A stretch of 32,000 nucleotides of DNA from Nitrospinales bacterium (lineage in GTDB: Bacteria > Nitrospinota > Nitrospinia > Nitrospinales > VA-1), in assembly GCA_965262115.1 (NCBI GenBank), contig OZ253496.1:875802-907801 (forward strand), read 5' to 3'. Under the pieces are notes generated by a model that was not told where the DNA came from, searched no databases, and saw only the letters and a list, made by a program, of their open reading frames with translations. Each line of letters opens with the position of its first letter. Positions within the stretch are counted from its first letter, which is position 1. The position numbers and the translations under genes were made by a program. This document shows, piece after piece, positions 15,771 through 19,475 of the stretch.

Positions 15771-16199
15771 TCATTCAACTTTCACTTTTTTCTGTTCAAA
15801 CAGGGCATCCAAAATAGGGCAATCAGGCACTACTCCCCCTTCACATTTTGAAGAAATTTCAGCCAATATTTTTTCCAGCTTTTTTAAATCCAAAATCTTT
15901 TGATGAATATTCCCCAGGTGATGAAGAGTGATATCTTCCACCTGCTGACAGGTGTAAGCCCCTCCATCAATTAGTTTCAAAAGGGCTCGGATATCCGCAA
16001 GCGAAAATCCTAGTTCCCTGCACCGACAAATAAATACAAGCCGCTTTAAGTGACTTTCACTATAAATCCGGTGTCCACCTTCTGTTCTGGGCGGTTTCGG
16101 GAAGATTTCAATCTTTTCATAATATCTGATTGTTTCGATCTTACAATTAGTTTGCCTGGACAAAAGCCCAATGCTCAAGTTTTTTTCTTGATTTGGCAT
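15771..16199 (-). CDS. MerR-family transcriptional regulator with the mercury-sensor cysteine pattern
   Basis: IGLLSRQTNCKIETIRYYEKIEIFPKPPRTEGGHRIYSESHLKRLVFICRCRELGFSLADIRALL...AYTCQQV (35 residues) KCEGGVVPDCPILDAL. The three Cys align with C82/C117/C126 of Tn501-type MerR: the first spacing is identical (35), the second is 8 instead of 9. Confidence 0.9.
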   Translation of the reverse strand: MPNQEKNLSIGLLSRQTNCKIETIRYYEKIEIFPKPPRTEGGHRIYSESHLKRLVFICRCRELGFSLADIRALLKLIDGGAYTCQQVEDITLHHLGNIHQKILDLKKLEKILAEISSKCEGGVVPDCPILDALFEQKKVKVE

Positions 16200-16207
16200 A
16201 ATAATCC

Positions 16208-16238
16208 TTGAACCTGTAGTTACTACAGGTTCTATATT
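16208..16238 (+). promoter_or_regulatory. MerR-family promoter/operator: TTGAAC - 19 bp - TATATT with the palindrome AACCTGTAG TTA CTACAGGTT
   Basis: -35 at 16208-16213, spacer 16214-16232 (19 bp), -10 at 16233-16238. A perfect 9-bp inverted repeat at 16211-16231 sits between the divergent genes. Confidence 0.88.
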
Positions 16239-16309
16239 ATAAATGAATAAAGGATTTCATGGAAAGGTGAATCTAGCCAAAAGACAAATCAAATTTTAAG
16301 GGGACAACT

Positions 16310-17020
16310 ATGGACAACACAAAAATTGACCACGAAATTACATCTGCTTTTGGGCTTGATATCCCCCCAATAGCAATGGCCTTTGTTGATGATCAACCGC
16401 AGGGAGTGGAAACAATCGAGGAAGAAGTTCCGTCCTTTTGTACTTTTTGGCGCATGGCAGAGAAAAAAGCGTTCTATGCCCCGGCAAATAAACATTATAA
16501 CTGCCCCATAGGAGCCATGGTGTTGGGATTCGAGATGCCCAAAGAGGTACAGGAACAATTGGGTGGTTTGGTTAAAAAAATGTGTGAATGCTCTTACTTG
16601 TCAGAAGATGAGCCTGCAAATATTCCTACCCTTACAGAAAAAAAAGTCGGCGTGGTTTATGGACCCTTGAAAGACTTTCCTGTGGAACCGCAATTGATCT
16701 TGATGTGGTTGAAACCCTCACAGGCAATGATTTACAACAAGGTTTTGGGATGCTGCAAATGGTCTGGAAGTATGGATTCTATGGCATTGGGTCGTCCGGC
16801 TTGCGCTGTGATTCCAACGACCTTAAATAAATCACCTTTTGGCATGTCTTTAGGTTGCACTGGAATGCGTACTTTCACTGAAGTCAGTGATGATCATATT
16901 CTGGCTACACTCAATTGCAAAGAAATAGATTCCTTCCTGACCAGTCTCCAAACAACTTTATCAGCGAACAAGGAGATGAAAGAATTCTATTTAGATCATA
17001 AAAAAAATATTACAGGTTAA
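16310..17020 (+). CDS. Cys-rich DUF169-family protein
   Basis: FGLDIPPIAMAFVDD...FCTFWR...YNCPIGAMVLGF...LGCCKWSG...GRPACAVIPTTL...FGMSLGCTGMRTFTE; nine cysteines; first gene downstream of the operator. Confidence 0.75.
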   Translation: MDNTKIDHEITSAFGLDIPPIAMAFVDDQPQGVETIEEEVPSFCTFWRMAEKKAFYAPANKHYNCPIGAMVLGFEMPKEVQEQLGGLVKKMCECSYLSEDEPANIPTLTEKKVGVVYGPLKDFPVEPQLILMWLKPSQAMIYNKVLGCCKWSGSMDSMALGRPACAVIPTTLNKSPFGMSLGCTGMRTFTEVSDDHILATLNCKEIDSFLTSLQTTLSANKEMKEFYLDHKKNITG

Positions 17021-17075
17021 ATATGGTCCGTTTTCAATTTAAAAGAATTAAAACTTGAATAAAGGAAACAATATT

Positions 17076-17345: not shown

Positions 17346-17373
17346 ATTTTAATTATTTTGGAAGGTTTTTATT

Positions 17374-18006
17374 ATGTCGTTTGTCTACATGAAAATCCTT
17401 GAGTCTCGCCCTGAACGTTACGATATAGGGATGGGTCTTTTGACTCTAGGAACATTGACAAAAATAAAACAGCAGATAGCCGAACATACCCATCCCGGCG
17501 ACCACGTTCTCGATTTAGGTTGCGGTACTGGAACTCTCGCGCAAATGTGTATCGAGCGAGGAGCAATAGTGACAGGAGTAGACACCAATAGCGGCATGCT
17601 AGCAGTGGCAAAGAGAAATTCGCCCTCGGCAAACTACCTTAATATTAGCCTTAGCAACCTCGATGAGCATTTAAGGGATGAATCGTTCGATATTATTTTG
17701 AGCACGCTTGCTTTCAGCGAACTGACCCGTGCCGAACGAATTCATGTATTGAAACAGATCAAAAGAATACTGAAAAATGAAGGGAAAGTTCTTATCGGCG
17801 ATGAAATAATCCCCGAAAACTTTTTTGCCAAATGCTTTTACTATGCCTTCAGGTTGCCTATGCGGCTTCTTACTTGGATTATGACTCAAACCACAACCAA
17901 TGCCATCTCCAGTTTTGATGATGAAGTTCTTGAAGCAGGCATGCAAATGGTCAATCGTAAACCATTTATGCTGGGCATGTTCATTCTTTTAGAAATTAAA
18001 AAATGA
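17374..18006 (+). CDS. Class I SAM-dependent methyltransferase, candidate corrinoid-protein-associated methyltransferase
   Basis: HVLDLGCGTGTLAQMCIERGAIVTGVDTNSGML...FDIILSTLAFSEL...RILKNEGKVLIGDEI; RBS GGAAGG. The stop overlaps the start of the HgcA-like gene (ATGA). Confidence 0.88.
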   Translation: MSFVYMKILESRPERYDIGMGLLTLGTLTKIKQQIAEHTHPGDHVLDLGCGTGTLAQMCIERGAIVTGVDTNSGMLAVAKRNSPSANYLNISLSNLDEHLRDESFDIILSTLAFSELTRAERIHVLKQIKRILKNEGKVLIGDEIIPENFFAKCFYYAFRLPMRLLTWIMTQTTTNAISSFDDEVLEAGMQMVNRKPFMLGMFILLEIKK

Positions 18007-18872
18007 TTGGCTGGATTAAAGACATATATCAAACCCTTTTTCGGTTTGCCCGATTTCCGTGCGAACCTGAAACAGTGGCTATCGGTAACCCAGACAAATC
18101 TTCTCCCATTCTCGTCACATGCAATTTTGACTATACGGTCAGGCATCTAAAGGAATATTTGAAAAAAGAAGCTTTAGATTGTTTCCTTTTAGTGGTCAAT
18201 ACCCAGGGAACCAATGTCTGGTGTGCAGCCGCCGAAGGTATTTTTACTACCGAAACAGTTCTGGCCCACTTGAAGGTTTACAATGTAGGAGAACTAGTCA
18301 ACCACAATCAGTTAATATTGCCGCAATTGTCCGTGGCTGGAGTTAAAAGAAAAGATCTTAAAGAACAAGGCTGGGAAGGCATATACGGCCCAGTTTACTT
18401 TACTGATTTAAAAGAATTTTTAAATAATGGTTTGACCAAGAACAAGGATATGCAGGCTCTCCAGTACGGTTATTGGGAGCGTTTTAAAATGGGCCTCAGT
18501 CATGCAGTTTTCTGTACGCTAGTCTGTATTCTCCCAATTTTTATTTTTGCTTCCGATTGGTGGATACAATCAGTCGCTCTAGTTTGGTATTTCGCTTTCA
18601 GCATGCAACTGGTTGAACATTTTATTCCCCTCGAAAGATTGCTGCATAAAGGTCTAGTGCTTTCCTTGCCAATTTTAGTCCTTGCACTAACTTCTATTTC
18701 CGATCCTGTTTTGAAAATACAGGCAACGTCTGGAATTATTGCCCTGGGAGCCTATATTGGATATGATGCGCAAGGTCATTCACATTTTGGGCAAAACCAG
18801 CAATCCGGTAAAATTTTTGCCAGAATTTTCGGCTTTTTGGTTCTGGTTTATGGAGGAACATTATTGATATGA
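18003..18872 (+). CDS. HgcA-like corrinoid-binding/membrane protein
   Basis: IGNPDKSSPILVTCNFDYTVRHLKEYLKKEALDCFLLVVNTQGTNVWCAAAEGIFTTETVLAHLKVYNVGELVNHNQLILPQLSVAGVKRKDLKEQGWEGIYGPVYFTDLKEFLNNG, then four to five hydrophobic segments (18.5-18.87 kb). It has the overall layout of HgcA, with NVWCAA matching the N(V/I)WCA cap-helix sequence. Confidence 0.8.
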   Translation: MIGWIKDIYQTLFRFARFPCEPETVAIGNPDKSSPILVTCNFDYTVRHLKEYLKKEALDCFLLVVNTQGTNVWCAAAEGIFTTETVLAHLKVYNVGELVNHNQLILPQLSVAGVKRKDLKEQGWEGIYGPVYFTDLKEFLNNGLTKNKDMQALQYGYWERFKMGLSHAVFCTLVCILPIFIFASDWWIQSVALVWYFAFSMQLVEHFIPLERLLHKGLVLSLPILVLALTSISDPVLKIQATSGIIALGAYIGYDAQGHSHFGQNQQSGKIFARIFGFLVLVYGGTLLI

Positions 18873-19057
18873 AAAAATATGTAGATTGGGACAAAATAGA
18901 AGAAGATACCGTTTCCGCTGAAGAAGCTTGTGAATGCACGAGAAGCAAATTGCAATCACTGATTGATTTCGTGGTGGAATTATTACCCAAAAAAAAGGAA
19001 TCCTCTTGTTGTGATGAAATGAATCAAGAAGATAAGTGCCGATGCAATGACAGCTGA
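18869..19057 (+). CDS. Small Cys-rich protein (62 aa), unknown
   Basis: MKKYVDWDKIEEDTVSAEEACECTRSKLQSLIDFVVELLPKKKESSCCDEMNQEDKCRCNDS. Overlaps both neighbours (ATGA at 18869; 11 nt with the 19047 ORF). Confidence 0.65.
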   Translation: MKKYVDWDKIEEDTVSAEEACECTRSKLQSLIDFVVELLPKKKESSCCDEMNQEDKCRCNDS

Positions 19058-19475
19058 CACAACAGGAACAGCAAAAAAGATTGTGACTTCCATTTGCCCC
19101 ACCTGTGGTTGTTCTTTAGTTCGGCTGGGAATAGGTTCGGACCGATGGGCACAGACTAATTATGAAGGCAAGGAATATTTCTTTTGTTGCCAAGGCTGCG
19201 CCGACCTGTTTAATGAAGAACCCCCAAGATATCTTCAAGAAACCAAAGATTTGGTGGTGTGTCCGACCTGCTTAGCAGAAAAACCGGTGCAATGGACTGT
19301 GCGTATGGAAATTGCAGGGTGGGAAGCATATTTTTGCCGATGCCCCTACTGCCCGGAAGTATTCCAAAAGGATCCCGATCACTACGTCAAACGTTTACAG
19401 GGTGAGATCCCCTATGATGGCGTGTTCGGTCAAGCTGGATGTTGCTCCTCTGACGAATTCGAGCCGACCAAATAA
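19047..19475 (+). CDS. Tandem TRASH/YHS-like metal-binding protein
   Basis: CPTCGCSLVR...YFFCCQGCADLFNEEPPRYL and CPTCLAEKP...YFCRCPYCPEVFQKDPDHYVKRL, plus a C-terminal GCCSSDE. Confidence 0.75.
   Translation: MTADTTGTAKKIVTSICPTCGCSLVRLGIGSDRWAQTNYEGKEYFFCCQGCADLFNEEPPRYLQETKDLVVCPTCLAEKPVQWTVRMEIAGWEAYFCRCPYCPEVFQKDPDHYVKRLQGEIPYDGVFGQAGCCSSDEFEPTK

What the first reader, a model, noticed from the sequence alone, without database searches (positions are those of the whole stretch)
15771..19475. Mercury-sensor-type MerR controlling an operon built around an HgcA-like corrinoid membrane protein
A MerR regulator with the three mercury-ligand cysteines is divergent from six tightly packed genes: DUF169 (9 Cys), a thioredoxin-fold protein (CPIC/CPSC/CC), a class I SAM methyltransferase, an HgcA-like protein, a 62-aa Cys-rich protein and a double TRASH/YHS-like protein. 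The last four overlap by 4, 4 and 11 nt. The combination of thiol-metal sensing, thiol/metal-binding proteins, a SAM methyltransferase and a corrinoid protein suggests an inducible system that methylates or otherwise processes mercury or another soft metal(loid). It differs from the minimal hgcAB pair. Whether this gene set has already been described cannot be determined from the sequence.
Basis: partly seen in the sequence, partly recalled or inferred. Interest (0 to 1): 0.92.

Follow-up and report, generated by a model that had tools for sequence, protein, structure and literature searches.

The report
Nitrospina MerR-controlled HgcA-like corrinoid operon
This is the already published "HgcA-like" gene cluster of marine Nitrospina bacteria, a metal-sensor-controlled operon built on a vitamin-B12 membrane protein and its partner methyltransferase, long suspected but never shown to make methylmercury in the open ocean.

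Summary
In detail: all seven ORFs, their overlaps and their Cys motifs are present as described. The locus is not new. The window is 99% identical, across the HgcA-like gene, to Nitrospina sp. LS_NOB. Villar et al. (bioRxiv 648329) already drew MerR1-DUF169-UbiE-HgcA-like-YHS for Nitrospina, named LS_NOB, and proposed MerR/Hg-induced co-regulation. Mercury methylation by Nitrospina was still untested in January 2026.

The 289-aa protein has the CFeSP/HgcA corrinoid fold with the cap-helix Cys. It fails every test for true HgcA: curated score, cap-helix motif list and an adjacent HgcB. Its methyltransferase is NCBIfam "CpaM". CpaM lies next to, or is fused in frame with, an HgcA(B)-like gene in 78 of 79 loci I compared across many phyla. 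That pair is the conserved core.

The Nitrospinaceae-type clade lacks the ferredoxin domain and adds a conserved 62-aa CxC/CC microprotein, a double YHS protein, DUF169 and a three-Cys MerR. The MerR acts at a 19-bp-spacer palindromic promoter. Some relatives carry MerT/MerP-like genes inside the operon.

Most likely function: a thiophilic-metal-induced methyl relay from SAM through cobalt to a metal, with Hg(II) the leading candidate. This is unproven.

The parts
15771..16199 (-). MerR-family metalloregulator, 142 aa, with Cys84, Cys119 and Cys127 at the three metal-ligand positions
   Evidence: Pfam MerR_1 and MerR-DNA-bind. NCBIfam CadR-PbrR 113, MerR 112, CueR 111 bits, all below cutoff. 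Best PDB relatives are 4UA1 Bacillus MerR at 95 bits, CadR 6JGV at 91 and PbrR 5GPE at 85, with the three Cys aligned. The three Cys columns are conserved in all orthologues and in the alternative co-directional MerR.
16208..16238 (+). MerR-type promoter/operator for the operon: -35 TTGAAC (16208-16213), 19-nt spacer holding the perfect palindrome GAACCTGTAGT-T-ACTACAGGTTC (16210-16232), -10 TATATT (16233-16238)
   Evidence: Read directly from the sequence. The palindrome was also picked up as a 10-pair stem at 16210-16232. The element is identical, apart from one base just outside the dyad, in a genome whose HgcA-like protein is 81% identical. The 19-nt spacing is the hallmark of MerR-activated promoters (established knowledge).
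16236..16265 (-). Promoter-like site for merR itself (TTTCCA, 18 nt, TATAAT); its -10 overlaps the operon -10
   Evidence: Best-scoring consensus match in the region, 10 of 12. That the two promoters are divergent and overlapping, as in classical mer operons, is inferred.
16310..17020 (+). DUF169 protein, 236 aa, 9 Cys; first gene of the operon; role unknown
   Evidence: Pfam DUF169 87.4 bits. Eight Cys are conserved in the clade. C44, C65, C165, C183 and H62 are invariant across 30 homologues down to 47% identity. Confident model (pLDDT 86.7) but no PDB neighbour by fold or sequence. A 51%-identical homologue also precedes a UbiE-type methyltransferase and a fused CdhD-ferredoxin protein in L091.
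17055..17345 (+). Small thioredoxin-fold protein (CPIC, CPSC, CC); a variable accessory gene. Its likely true start is the ATG at 17076
   Evidence: Pfam Thioredoxin_3 26.3 bits; weak hit to TIGR00412 MTH895/ArsE. It is absent, truncated or split in about half of the related loci. In L019 a MerT-like gene occupies the same slot.
17374..18006 (+). CpaM, a class I SAM-dependent 'corrinoid protein-associated methyltransferase', 210 aa
   Evidence: NCBIfam NF043040 249 bits, above the cutoff of 180. A homologue lies within 2 kb upstream of, overlaps, or is fused in frame to the HgcA(B)-like gene in 78 of 79 loci. It has no Cys-rich metal site and scores only 48 bits against ArsM models (cutoff 263), so its likely acceptor is the corrinoid rather than a metal (inference).
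18003..18872 (+). HgcA-like corrinoid membrane protein, 289 aa: CFeSP-type corrinoid-binding domain (about residues 17-140) with cap-helix Cys74 (NVWCAAAEG), then a helical transmembrane domain; no ferredoxin domain
   Evidence: Pfam CdhD 58.6 bits. NCBIfam HgcAB-like 227 bits over model positions 1-226 of 350; HgcA 134 bits. CFeSP sequence hits. AF2 pLDDT 84.8, helices 157-288. Foldseek hits 9a0b and CFeSP. N71 V72 W73 C74 A75 A76 are invariant.
18869..19057 (+). Conserved 62-aa Cys-rich microprotein (CxC at 21/23, CC at 47/48), translationally coupled to the HgcA-like gene
   Evidence: The ATGA overlap and the EACECTRSK block are conserved even in relatives at 58-60% identity (L001, L023, L024). 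The CC pair is conserved within Nitrospinaceae. Only 14 cluster representatives match in 1.84 billion proteins. No HMM family matches. It is not in the published gene map.
19047..19475 (+). Double YHS/TRASH-like Cys-rich protein, 142 aa, with a C-terminal CC pair
   Evidence: Pfam YHS 50.6 bits for residues 36-65. PDB match to the YHS region of phenol hydroxylase phN. Thirteen Cys columns are conserved in 14 orthologues. It is present in every locus at 73% identity or more that reaches that far, and on the opposite strand in L001.

Best explanation
This is the known Nitrospina 'HgcA-like' locus. A three-cysteine MerR-family regulator sits on a palindrome inside a 19-bp-spacer promoter. On binding a thiophilic metal it most likely activates transcription of a six-gene operon (inferred from the anatomy). 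The conserved catalytic core is CpaM plus the corrinoid membrane protein. CpaM most likely takes the methyl group of SAM and loads it onto the cobalt of the corrinoid held under the cap-helix cysteine. The methyl-cobalt then most likely passes the methyl to a soft metal(loid) at the membrane. In the Nitrospinaceae-type clade the ferredoxin (HgcB-like) domain is missing. The 62-aa CxC/CC microprotein, the double YHS protein, DUF169 and the thioredoxin-like protein most likely take over two jobs: binding and delivering the metal, and keeping the thiols and cobalt reduced. Hg(II) is the leading candidate substrate, at roughly 0.3. A metal(loid) substrate of some kind is roughly 0.55. Shown here: gene content, folds, family membership, conserved synteny, the operator, and natural fusions. 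Inferred: inducer, direction of methyl flow, acceptor, and the roles of all accessory proteins.
For: 1. The promoter is TTGAAC, 19 nt, TATATT with a perfect dyad, conserved in a divergent genome. 2. The three metal-ligand Cys are conserved in two different MerR types that control the same operon. The second type has its own MerR-type promoter and scores best against Hg-MerR at 132 bits. 3. CpaM passes its curated cutoff. It is adjacent to, or fused in frame with, the corrinoid protein in 78 of 79 loci, including single-polypeptide CpaM-HgcA-like(-ferredoxin) ORFs in Asgard archaea, Anaerolineales and Poribacteria. 4. The corrinoid fold and the invariant NVWCAA cap-helix Cys are present. 5. SAM is the proven methyl donor, and Co-thiolate ligation is proven, for true HgcAB (PMC11588087). 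6. MerT-like and HMA/MerP-like metal-uptake genes lie inside or beside the module in L019, L022, L025, L023, L027 and L086. A MerR-MerC cluster lies beside it in L002. 7. The accessory proteins have dense conserved Cys: 13 columns in YHS, 8 in DUF169, and CxC plus CC in the microprotein. 8. The same neighbourhood and hypothesis are published, and expression in the ocean is reported.
Against: No experiment exists. No isolate carries the gene, and methylation by Nitrospina is unconfirmed. The cultured organisms with the related fused HgcAB-like gene, P. furiosus and M. methylutens, made no methylmercury. The protein fails the HgcA equivalog cutoff and the accepted cap-helix motif list. No ferredoxin or other obvious low-potential reductant for Co(II) to Co(I) is in the operon or the window. 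The hosts live in oxic water, where Co(I) chemistry is difficult. The MerR cannot be assigned to Hg rather than Cd, Pb, Zn or Cu. Distant relatives of the module are under ArsR or TetR regulators, and the ArsR next to true hgcAB responds to arsenic and SAH. So the metal link may be specific to this clade.
Confidence: 0.55

Rival explanations
1. The chemistry is the same methyl relay from SAM through cobalt, but the physiological acceptor is another metalloid or metal: As(III), Se, Te, Sb, Sn, Pb or Cd. Methylation then serves detoxification or volatilisation, and any Hg methylation is a side reaction or absent.
For: The MerR scores as well against CadR/PbrR as against MerR, and its Cys spacing (35, 8) lies between them. 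The thioredoxin-like protein weakly matches the MTH895/ArsE family. Many relatives have ArsR-family regulators. True hgcAB is linked to arsenic and SAH through its ArsR. Fused relatives made no MeHg.
Against: The transport genes that recur with the module are MerT, MerP and MerC types, not ArsB, Acr3 or ArsP. The alternative MerR scores best against the Hg-MerR model. No ars genes are in the window.
Confidence: 0.2
2. The corrinoid module has a non-metal native substrate. Examples are reductive dehalogenation of halomethanes by Co(I), or methyl transfer to or from a small organic thiol. The Cys-rich proteins and the MerR then reflect redox or thiol-stress control, not a metal substrate.
For: A 2026 preprint reports CCl4 dechlorination by heterologously expressed HgcAB and proposes halomethanes as its ancestral substrates. 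A subset of relatives is under TetR-type regulators, which typically sense organic ligands. No functional test supports metal methylation for this family.
Against: A dedicated SAM methyltransferase, universally coupled and sometimes fused to the corrinoid protein, argues for methyl transfer rather than dehalogenation. The three-Cys MerR site and the MerT/HMA genes are metal-specific features.
Confidence: 0.15
3. The operon is mainly a metal-binding and buffering or trafficking system, built from the YHS, microprotein, DUF169 and thioredoxin-like proteins. The CpaM-corrinoid pair then has a housekeeping or now-inactive role, so no methylated metal is made.
For: The accessory proteins have very high conserved Cys content. 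The reductase partner has been lost. The thioredoxin-like gene is decaying and an IS1634 element has inserted inside the operon in L013.
Against: CpaM, the HgcA-like gene and the 62-aa ORF keep intact frames, 4-nt coupling overlaps and invariant catalytic residues across 58-99% identity and several phyla. That indicates purifying selection on the methyl-transfer core.
Confidence: 0.1

Closest known systems
The published Nitrospina 'HgcA-like' locus (Gionfriddo et al. 2016, cited from memory and; Villar et al. bioRxiv 10.1101/648329, Fig. 1b; Tada et al. PMC7347909, PMC8557936, PMC12874090)
   Same: It is the same locus. The window's HgcA-like gene is 99% identical to Nitrospina sp. LS_NOB, an assembly named by Villar et al.. 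Their figure shows MerR1, DUF169, UbiE, HgcA-like and YHS, and they propose MerR/Hg-induced co-regulation.
   Different: The published map omits several things found here: the 62-aa ORF, the thioredoxin-like gene, the operator, the alternative co-directional MerR, the embedded MerT/HMA genes of some relatives, and the CpaM link to the fused family.
HgcAB, the mercury methylation corrinoid protein plus its 2[4Fe-4S] ferredoxin (NCBIfam NF040863; biochemistry in PMC11588087)
   Same: Both have a CFeSP-type corrinoid domain with an invariant NVWCAA cap-helix Cys and a C-terminal transmembrane domain. SAM is the ultimate methyl source, proven for HgcAB and inferred here. A metalloregulator gene is adjacent in both.
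   Different: The window protein scores 134 against a cutoff of 275. It lacks the N-terminal extension of about 30-50 residues and the Lys of NVWCAAGK. It has no hgcB. It has a separate class I methyltransferase, which a true hgcA locus lacks (ArsR-hgcA-hgcB). Its regulator is MerR, not ArsR. It falls outside the true-HgcA clade, which is monophyletic in 189 of 200 bootstraps.
CpaM + HgcAB-like fusion protein pair (NCBIfam NF043040 and NF043039; 'fused HgcAB' of Podar et al. 2015, PMC4646819)
   Same: CpaM sits immediately upstream with a 4-nt overlap. Both have a short N-terminus and no Lys in the cap helix. This is the best HMM match, at 227 bits.
   Different: The window protein has no ferredoxin domain: the match covers model positions 1-226 of 350 and falls below the cutoff of 285. 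The clade adds the 62-aa microprotein, a double YHS protein, DUF169 and MerR. Hosts appear to be aerobes or microaerophiles rather than anaerobes (inferred from organism names).
Classical mer operon control region (MerR/merO, Tn501/Tn21, Bacillus RC607)
   Same: Both have a divergent merR, three ligand Cys, a 19-bp spacer promoter with a dyad between -35 and -10, and overlapping divergent promoters. Some relatives carry MerT/MerP-like genes.
   Different: There is no MerA or MerB. The regulator is below the MerR equivalog cutoff. The dyad sequence is different; my comparison with the Tn501, CadR and PbrR operators is from memory only.
Corrinoid iron-sulfur protein (CFeSP) with MeTr of the Wood-Ljungdahl pathway
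   Same: The corrinoid-binding domain is homologous: 2h9a, 4djd and 4c1n align at rmsd 2.2-2.4 A over about 128 residues. Both have a dedicated methyltransferase partner that loads the cobalt.
   Different: The partner is a SAM-dependent Rossmann methyltransferase, not a methyl-THF TIM-barrel enzyme. A Cys replaces the CFeSP residue over the cobalt. The protein is membrane-anchored, has no [4Fe-4S] domain and has no small subunit.

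Membership tests
HgcA (mercury methylation corrinoid protein, NCBIfam NF040863) | Score at or above the curated equivalog cutoff (275 bits) | tested here: not met
   134.1 bits, covering model positions 28-197 of 325.
HgcA (mercury methylation corrinoid protein, NCBIfam NF040863) | Cap-helix motif from the accepted list (NVWCAAGK, NVWCASGK, NVWCAGGK, NIWCAAGK, NIWCAGGK, NVWCSAGK; Capo et al. 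2022) | tested here: not met
   The window has NVWCAAAE. The list is from PMC10087281. The Cys itself and NVWCAA are conserved.
HgcA (mercury methylation corrinoid protein, NCBIfam NF040863) | Adjacent hgcB encoding a 2[4Fe-4S] ferredoxin with two CX2CX2CX3C motifs | tested here: not met
   No such motif occurs in any real ORF of the 32-kb window. The downstream genes are the 62-aa ORF and YHS. A true hgcA locus has hgcB directly downstream.
HgcA (mercury methylation corrinoid protein, NCBIfam NF040863) | CFeSP-type corrinoid-binding domain plus a C-terminal transmembrane domain | tested here: met
   Pfam CdhD 58.6 bits. Foldseek hits to 9a0b and CFeSP. Predicted helices 157-288.
HgcA (mercury methylation corrinoid protein, NCBIfam NF040863) | Groups phylogenetically with HgcA of confirmed methylators | tested here: not met
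   In an NJ tree of 125 corrinoid-domain columns rooted on CFeSP, true HgcA is monophyletic without the Nitrospinaceae-type clade in 189 of 200 bootstraps. A grouping of that clade with true HgcA alone appears in 5 of 200. Villar et al. also call them distinct.
HgcA (mercury methylation corrinoid protein, NCBIfam NF040863) | Produces methylmercury from Hg(II) | not testable with these tools
   No isolate carries the gene, and the capacity was unconfirmed as of January 2026 (PMC12874090).
HgcAB-like fusion protein (NCBIfam NF043039) | Score at or above the cutoff (285 bits), with the C-terminal ferredoxin domain in the same polypeptide | tested here: not met
   227.3 bits over model positions 1-226 of 350. 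There are 0 ferredoxin motifs in all 19 Nitrospinaceae-type proteins, against 1-2 in most distant relatives.
HgcAB-like fusion protein (NCBIfam NF043039) | Encoded immediately downstream of a CpaM methyltransferase | tested here: met
   There is a 4-nt overlap in the window. CpaM is adjacent, overlapping or fused in 78 of 79 loci.
HgcAB-like fusion protein (NCBIfam NF043039) | Forms a clade with fused HgcAB-like proteins to the exclusion of true HgcA | tested here: inconclusive
   Bootstrap support is 32 of 200 for Nitrospinaceae-type plus fused, and 56 of 200 for fused plus true HgcA. The fused group is paraphyletic in the NJ tree.
CpaM, corrinoid protein-associated methyltransferase (NCBIfam NF043040) | Full-length match above the curated cutoff (180 bits) | tested here: met
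   249.1 bits, residues 2-209 against model positions 1-215 of 216.
CpaM, corrinoid protein-associated methyltransferase (NCBIfam NF043040) | Transfers methyl from SAM to the partner's corrinoid | not testable with these tools
   NCBIfam classes the model as a 'hypothetical equivalog', and I found no biochemical paper. The in-frame fusions in L030, L031, L034, L056, L085 and L047 support a physical partnership.
MerR, mercury-responsive regulator (TIGR02051) | Score at or above the equivalog cutoff (150.85 bits) | tested here: not met
   111.8 bits. CadR-PbrR scores 113.2 and CueR 111.0, also below their cutoffs.
MerR, mercury-responsive regulator (TIGR02051) | Three metal-ligand cysteines (Cys79, Cys114 and Cys123 equivalents) | tested here: met
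   Cys84, Cys119 and Cys127 align with the ligand Cys of Bacillus MerR 4UA1 and of CadR 6JGV. They are conserved in all orthologues. The spacing is 35 and 8, against 35 and 9 in MerR and 35 and 7 in CadR; residue numbering for those proteins is from memory.
MerR, mercury-responsive regulator (TIGR02051) | Acts at a promoter with a 19-20 bp spacer containing a dyad operator | tested here: met
   TTGAAC, 19 nt, TATATT with a perfect palindrome at 16210-16232.
MerR, mercury-responsive regulator (TIGR02051) | Induced specifically by Hg(II) | not testable with these tools
   This needs a reporter or binding assay.

The most novel reading that the evidence does not exclude
The Nitrospinaceae-type operon is a dedicated, oxygen-tolerant and ferredoxin-independent mercury-methylating system. 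It is switched on by Hg(II) through its MerR and fed, in some lineages, by MerT/MerP-type importers. CpaM loads the cobalt from SAM, and the 62-aa CxC/CC microprotein and the double YHS protein replace the Hg-delivering Cys tail of HgcB. If so, methylmercury formation in oxic ocean water would be a regulated detoxification response rather than an accidental side reaction of anaerobes.
Probability: 0.25. Interest if true: 0.9.

Novelty: already known. Interest (0 to 1): 0.45.

Why it matters
Methylmercury in marine fish is largely made in the water column, yet classical hgcAB carriers are anaerobes that are rare there. Nitrospina HgcA-like genes are the most abundant and widespread hgcA homologues in subsurface oxic ocean metagenomes, so whether this operon methylates mercury bears directly on global mercury budgets. 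That question is already recognised in the field. This analysis adds a sharper definition of what must be tested. The functional unit is CpaM + corrinoid protein + 62-aa microprotein (+ YHS, DUF169), not 'hgcA' alone. It belongs with a widespread CpaM-coupled paralogue group whose tested members made no methylmercury. It also has a clean MerR operator that could serve directly as a reporter for the inducing metal.

Tried and rejected
1. Literature search for 'CpaM' and 'corrinoid protein-associated methyltransferase' returned only unrelated acronyms. The probable source paper for the NCBIfam models (PMC9879109) is not held.
3. The rooted tree was meant to decide whether the Nitrospinaceae-type clade is sister to the fused family or to true HgcA. 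The first script timed out. The faster NJ version left the deep order unresolved, at 32, 56 and 5 of 200. So I do not claim membership of the fused family on phylogeny.
4. I looked for an HgcB-like ferredoxin anywhere in the window and found none.
5. I looked for merA, merB or ars genes in the window and found only housekeeping genes.
6. The 62-aa protein has no wider family and no HMM hit. The idea that it is an HgcB remnant is not supported by any sequence similarity and rests only on its CC pair.
7. The standard sigma-70 scan does not report the operon promoter because it only allows 16-18 nt spacers. No convincing intrinsic terminator lies after the YHS gene.
8. Assigning the MerR to one metal from HMM scores, PDB relatives and Cys spacing was not possible.

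Full report
**Observation.** The last four overlap by 4, 4 and 11 nt. Pfam and NCBIfam confirm each assignment. The region has lower G+C (about 0.40) than its flanks (0.46-0.54). It sits among housekeeping genes, with no merA, merB or ars genes in the 32 kb.

**Control region.**
- The -35 element is TTGAAC at 16208-16213.
- The spacer is 19 nt and is almost entirely a perfect palindrome, GAACCTGTAGT-T-ACTACAGGTTC (16210-16232).
- The -10 element is TATATT at 16233-16238.
- On the other strand the best promoter-like site of the region (TTTCCA, 18 nt, TATAAT; 16265 to 16236) overlaps it. This gives the divergent overlapping arrangement of classical mer control regions.
- The element is essentially identical in a complete Nitrospinaceae genome whose HgcA-like protein is only 81% identical.

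**The regulator.** Cys84, Cys119 and Cys127 align with the three ligand cysteines of Bacillus MerR (4UA1, 95 bits), CadR (6JGV, 91 bits) and PbrR (5GPE, 85 bits). NCBIfam scores are CadR-PbrR 113, MerR 112 and CueR 111, all below the cutoffs of about 150. It is therefore a three-thiolate soft-metal sensor whose metal cannot be read from sequence.

**Identity of the locus.** Homologues of the 289-aa protein at 58-99% identity are almost all from Nitrospinaceae. The best genome match, at 99%, is Nitrospina sp. LS_NOB contig LFLA01000004.1. This is the 'Nitrospina HgcA-like' gene of the marine mercury literature.
- Villar et al. (bioRxiv 10.1101/648329) show MerR1, DUF169, UbiE, HgcA-like and YHS on Nitrospina scaftigs in their Figure 1b.
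- They name LS_NOB as one of three assemblies that carry the gene.

The function is not.

**What the 289-aa protein is.** It has the CFeSP/HgcA corrinoid fold.
- By sequence it matches CFeSP: 2h9a at 49.9 bits alone, and 76 bits with a profile.
- A confident model (pLDDT 84.8) has as top neighbours the HgcAB integrative model 9a0b, then CFeSP corrinoid domains at rmsd 2.2-2.4 A over about 128 residues.
- NVWCAA with the cap-helix Cys is invariant.

It nevertheless fails each membership test for true HgcA.
- It scores 134 bits against a cutoff of 275.
- Its cap helix, NVWCAAAE, is not in the accepted motif list.
- It lacks the N-terminal extension of true HgcA.
- It has no adjacent ferredoxin, and no CX2CX2CX3C motif occurs in any real ORF of the window.
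- In a CFeSP-rooted NJ tree, true HgcA is monophyletic without it in 189 of 200 bootstraps.

It scores better (227 bits) against NCBIfam 'HgcAB-like fusion protein', but only over positions 1-226 of 350, because the ferredoxin part is absent. The tree does not resolve whether the Nitrospinaceae-type clade (monophyletic in 197 of 200) is sister to the fused proteins or to true HgcA. I therefore do not file it in either family.

**The conserved core.** The methyltransferase passes the curated cutoff of NCBIfam NF043040, 'corrinoid protein-associated methyltransferase CpaM' (249 bits against 180). A genome-wide scan used a pattern, NVWCAAx[EG]G, that excludes true HgcA. It found at least 570 loci, and I analysed the best 80.
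- In 78 of the 79 loci with a recognisable corrinoid gene, a CpaM homologue overlaps it, lies within 2 kb upstream, or is fused to it in frame. The remaining locus starts at a contig edge.
- Single ORFs of about 590-600 aa carry CpaM + HgcA-like + ferredoxin in Promethearchaeota/Asgard MAGs (L030, L031, L034) and an unclassified archaeal MAG (L056).
- L085 (Anaerolineales MAG) and L047 (Poribacteria MAG) are single ORFs carrying CpaM + HgcA-like with no ferredoxin motif detected.
- A true hgcA locus instead reads ArsR-hgcA-hgcB, with no methyltransferase.
- CpaM has no Cys-rich site and does not resemble ArsM beyond the generic fold, so the corrinoid is its likely acceptor (inference).

Purified true HgcAB uses SAM as methyl donor, through a methyl-cob(III)alamin intermediate with Co-thiolate ligation (PMC11588087). 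A relay from SAM through CpaM to cobalt is therefore a natural reading for this paralogue.

**What is specific to the Nitrospinaceae-type clade.** This covers L007-L025 plus L001 and L006.
- None of the 19 proteins has a ferredoxin motif.
- The 62-aa ORF follows the corrinoid gene, with the same ATGA overlap, wherever the contig extends. This includes Nitrospirae, Methyloglobulus and an unclassified genome at 58-60% identity.
- In the microprotein, the EACECTRSK block is invariant and a CC pair is conserved within Nitrospinaceae.
- The microprotein family has only 14 cluster representatives in 1.84 billion proteins. It is missing from the published map.
- The double YHS protein (13 conserved Cys columns, C-terminal CC) and DUF169 (8 conserved Cys) are present in all loci at 73% identity or more that reach far enough.
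- The thioredoxin-like gene is absent, truncated or split in about half of the loci.
- Flanking genes differ between genomes, and an IS1634 element interrupts the operon in L013. The cluster therefore behaves as a mobile cassette.

**DUF169.** Its role remains unknown. The model is confident (pLDDT 86.7), but it has no structural or sequence neighbour in the PDB. Four Cys and one His are invariant across the subfamily. A homologue at 51% identity again precedes a UbiE-type methyltransferase and a fused CdhD-ferredoxin protein in an unrelated metagenome. Another homologue follows an ArsR gene.

**Additional links to metals.** Four genomes (L013, L015, L021, L022) replace the divergent MerR with a different, co-directional MerR. 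It keeps the same three Cys columns and scores best against the Hg-MerR model (132 bits, cutoff 151). It has its own MerR-type promoter, for example TTGACC-CTGTACTATGGTACAGGGTG-TAAGTT.

MerT-like and HMA/MerP-like genes lie inside or next to the module in several loci.

| Locus | Arrangement |
|---|---|
| L019 | DUF169, MerT-like, CpaM |
| L022 | thioredoxin-like, MerT-like, HMA, CpaM |
| L025 | MerT-like, HMA, CpaM |
| L023 | MerR-MerT-HMA cluster upstream on the opposite strand |
| L027 | MerT-HMA fusion downstream |
| L086 | MerT-like and HMA cluster upstream |
| L002 | MerR and MerC cluster upstream |

The MerT assignment is weak in absolute score (Pfam 32.3 against a cutoff of 32.9), but the match is full length and includes the CCxGP motif. 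I found no paper in the held library that connects merT with the Nitrospina locus. These recurrent, independent associations are the best new evidence that a mercury-type metal is the input.

**Counter-evidence.**
- The only cultured carriers of the related fused gene, P. furiosus and M. methylutens, produced no methylmercury.
- No reductant for the cobalt is evident.
- The hosts are oxic-water organisms.
- Distant relatives are under ArsR or TetR regulators. The ArsR of true hgcAB responds to arsenic and SAH.
- A 2026 preprint proposes halomethane dehalogenation as the ancestral HgcAB activity.

**Verdict.** My best explanation (confidence 0.55) is a thiophilic-metal-induced methyl relay from SAM through CpaM to cobalt and on to a metal(loid). 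In it, clade-specific Cys-rich proteins substitute for HgcB. Hg(II) is the leading substrate at about 0.3. The value added here is fourfold: a corrected family assignment, a defined functional unit that includes a previously unlisted microprotein, the operator, and the MerT/MerP and fusion evidence.

Noticed in passing
L030 7260-9065, L031 1490-3259, L034 1232-3022, L056 2235-4004, L085 609-2393, L047 7263-8849: Single ORFs of 528-601 aa fuse a CpaM methyltransferase in frame to an HgcA-like corrinoid/membrane domain. L030, L031 and L034 are from Promethearchaeota (Asgard) MAGs and L056 from an unclassified archaeal MAG; all four also carry a 2[4Fe-4S] ferredoxin domain. L085 (Anaerolineales MAG) and L047 (Poribacteria MAG) have no detectable ferredoxin motif. 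I found no paper describing these fusions.
   Followed up: partly
L022 3008-3749; L019 7029-7361; L025 355-953; L027 9281-9871; L023 347-928; L086 3908-4625: MerT-like (CCxGP motif) and HMA/MerP-like genes are embedded in or adjacent to CpaM-HgcA-like modules in six loci from different lineages. L027 has a MerT-HMA fusion. The window itself has no MerT; its thioredoxin-like gene sits in the corresponding slot.
   Followed up: partly
L013 3501-3911, L015 5996-6406, L021 6128-6583, L022 1454-1930: A second, co-directional MerR type replaces the divergent MerR in four Nitrospinaceae-type loci. It is only about 75 bits similar to the window's MerR and keeps the same three Cys. It has its own MerR-type promoter with an ACCCTGTAC-N4-GTACAGGGT dyad.
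   Followed up: partly
L013 5387-7018: An IS1634-family transposase (327 bits) is inserted between the truncated thioredoxin-like gene and CpaM. This probably uncouples the downstream genes from the MerR promoter in that genome, which is labelled Nitrospirales, 4.6 Mb.
   Followed up: partly
L002 4103-5375; also L029, L039, L082, L086: A subset of fused HgcAB-like loci shares a conserved block: ArsR, a 137-aa protein, a 161-aa membrane protein (GCCGSP motif, C-terminal CECVEC), then CpaM. The two middle proteins match no Pfam or NCBIfam family.
   Followed up: partly
window 11301-13790 (minus strand): Upstream of the cluster lies another thiol/metal-flavoured group: a cytochrome b, a 143-aa protein with no family match, a TlpA/AhpC-type thiol:disulfide oxidoreductase and a PCYCGC-motif protein (CYCYC...C..C). 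I did not examine it further.
   Followed up: no
window 16001-19000: G+C drops to about 0.40, against 0.46-0.54 in the flanks. The cluster also has different neighbours in other Nitrospinaceae genomes. Both are consistent with horizontal acquisition as a cassette.
   Followed up: partly
L012 (MAG labelled Flavobacteriales), L025 (labelled Chloroflexota), L013 (labelled Nitrospirales): These contigs carry Nitrospinaceae-type clusters at 87-89% identity but are assigned to unrelated taxa. For the short contigs, mis-binning is more likely than transfer. L013 is a 4.6-Mb chromosome and may be a real transfer or a mislabel.
   Followed up: no
window 19676-20488 (minus strand): A 270-aa leucine-rich-repeat protein (LRR_6 75 bits) lies immediately downstream of the operon on the opposite strand. 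This is unusual for a free-living bacterium and notable because LS_NOB is reported to come from a sponge holobiont.
   Followed up: no
L002 1150-1467: A 'DF family (seleno)protein' (104 bits, thioredoxin-like) sits between MerR and MerC, upstream of a fused HgcAB-like module. It parallels the thioredoxin-like gene in the window's operon.
   Followed up: no
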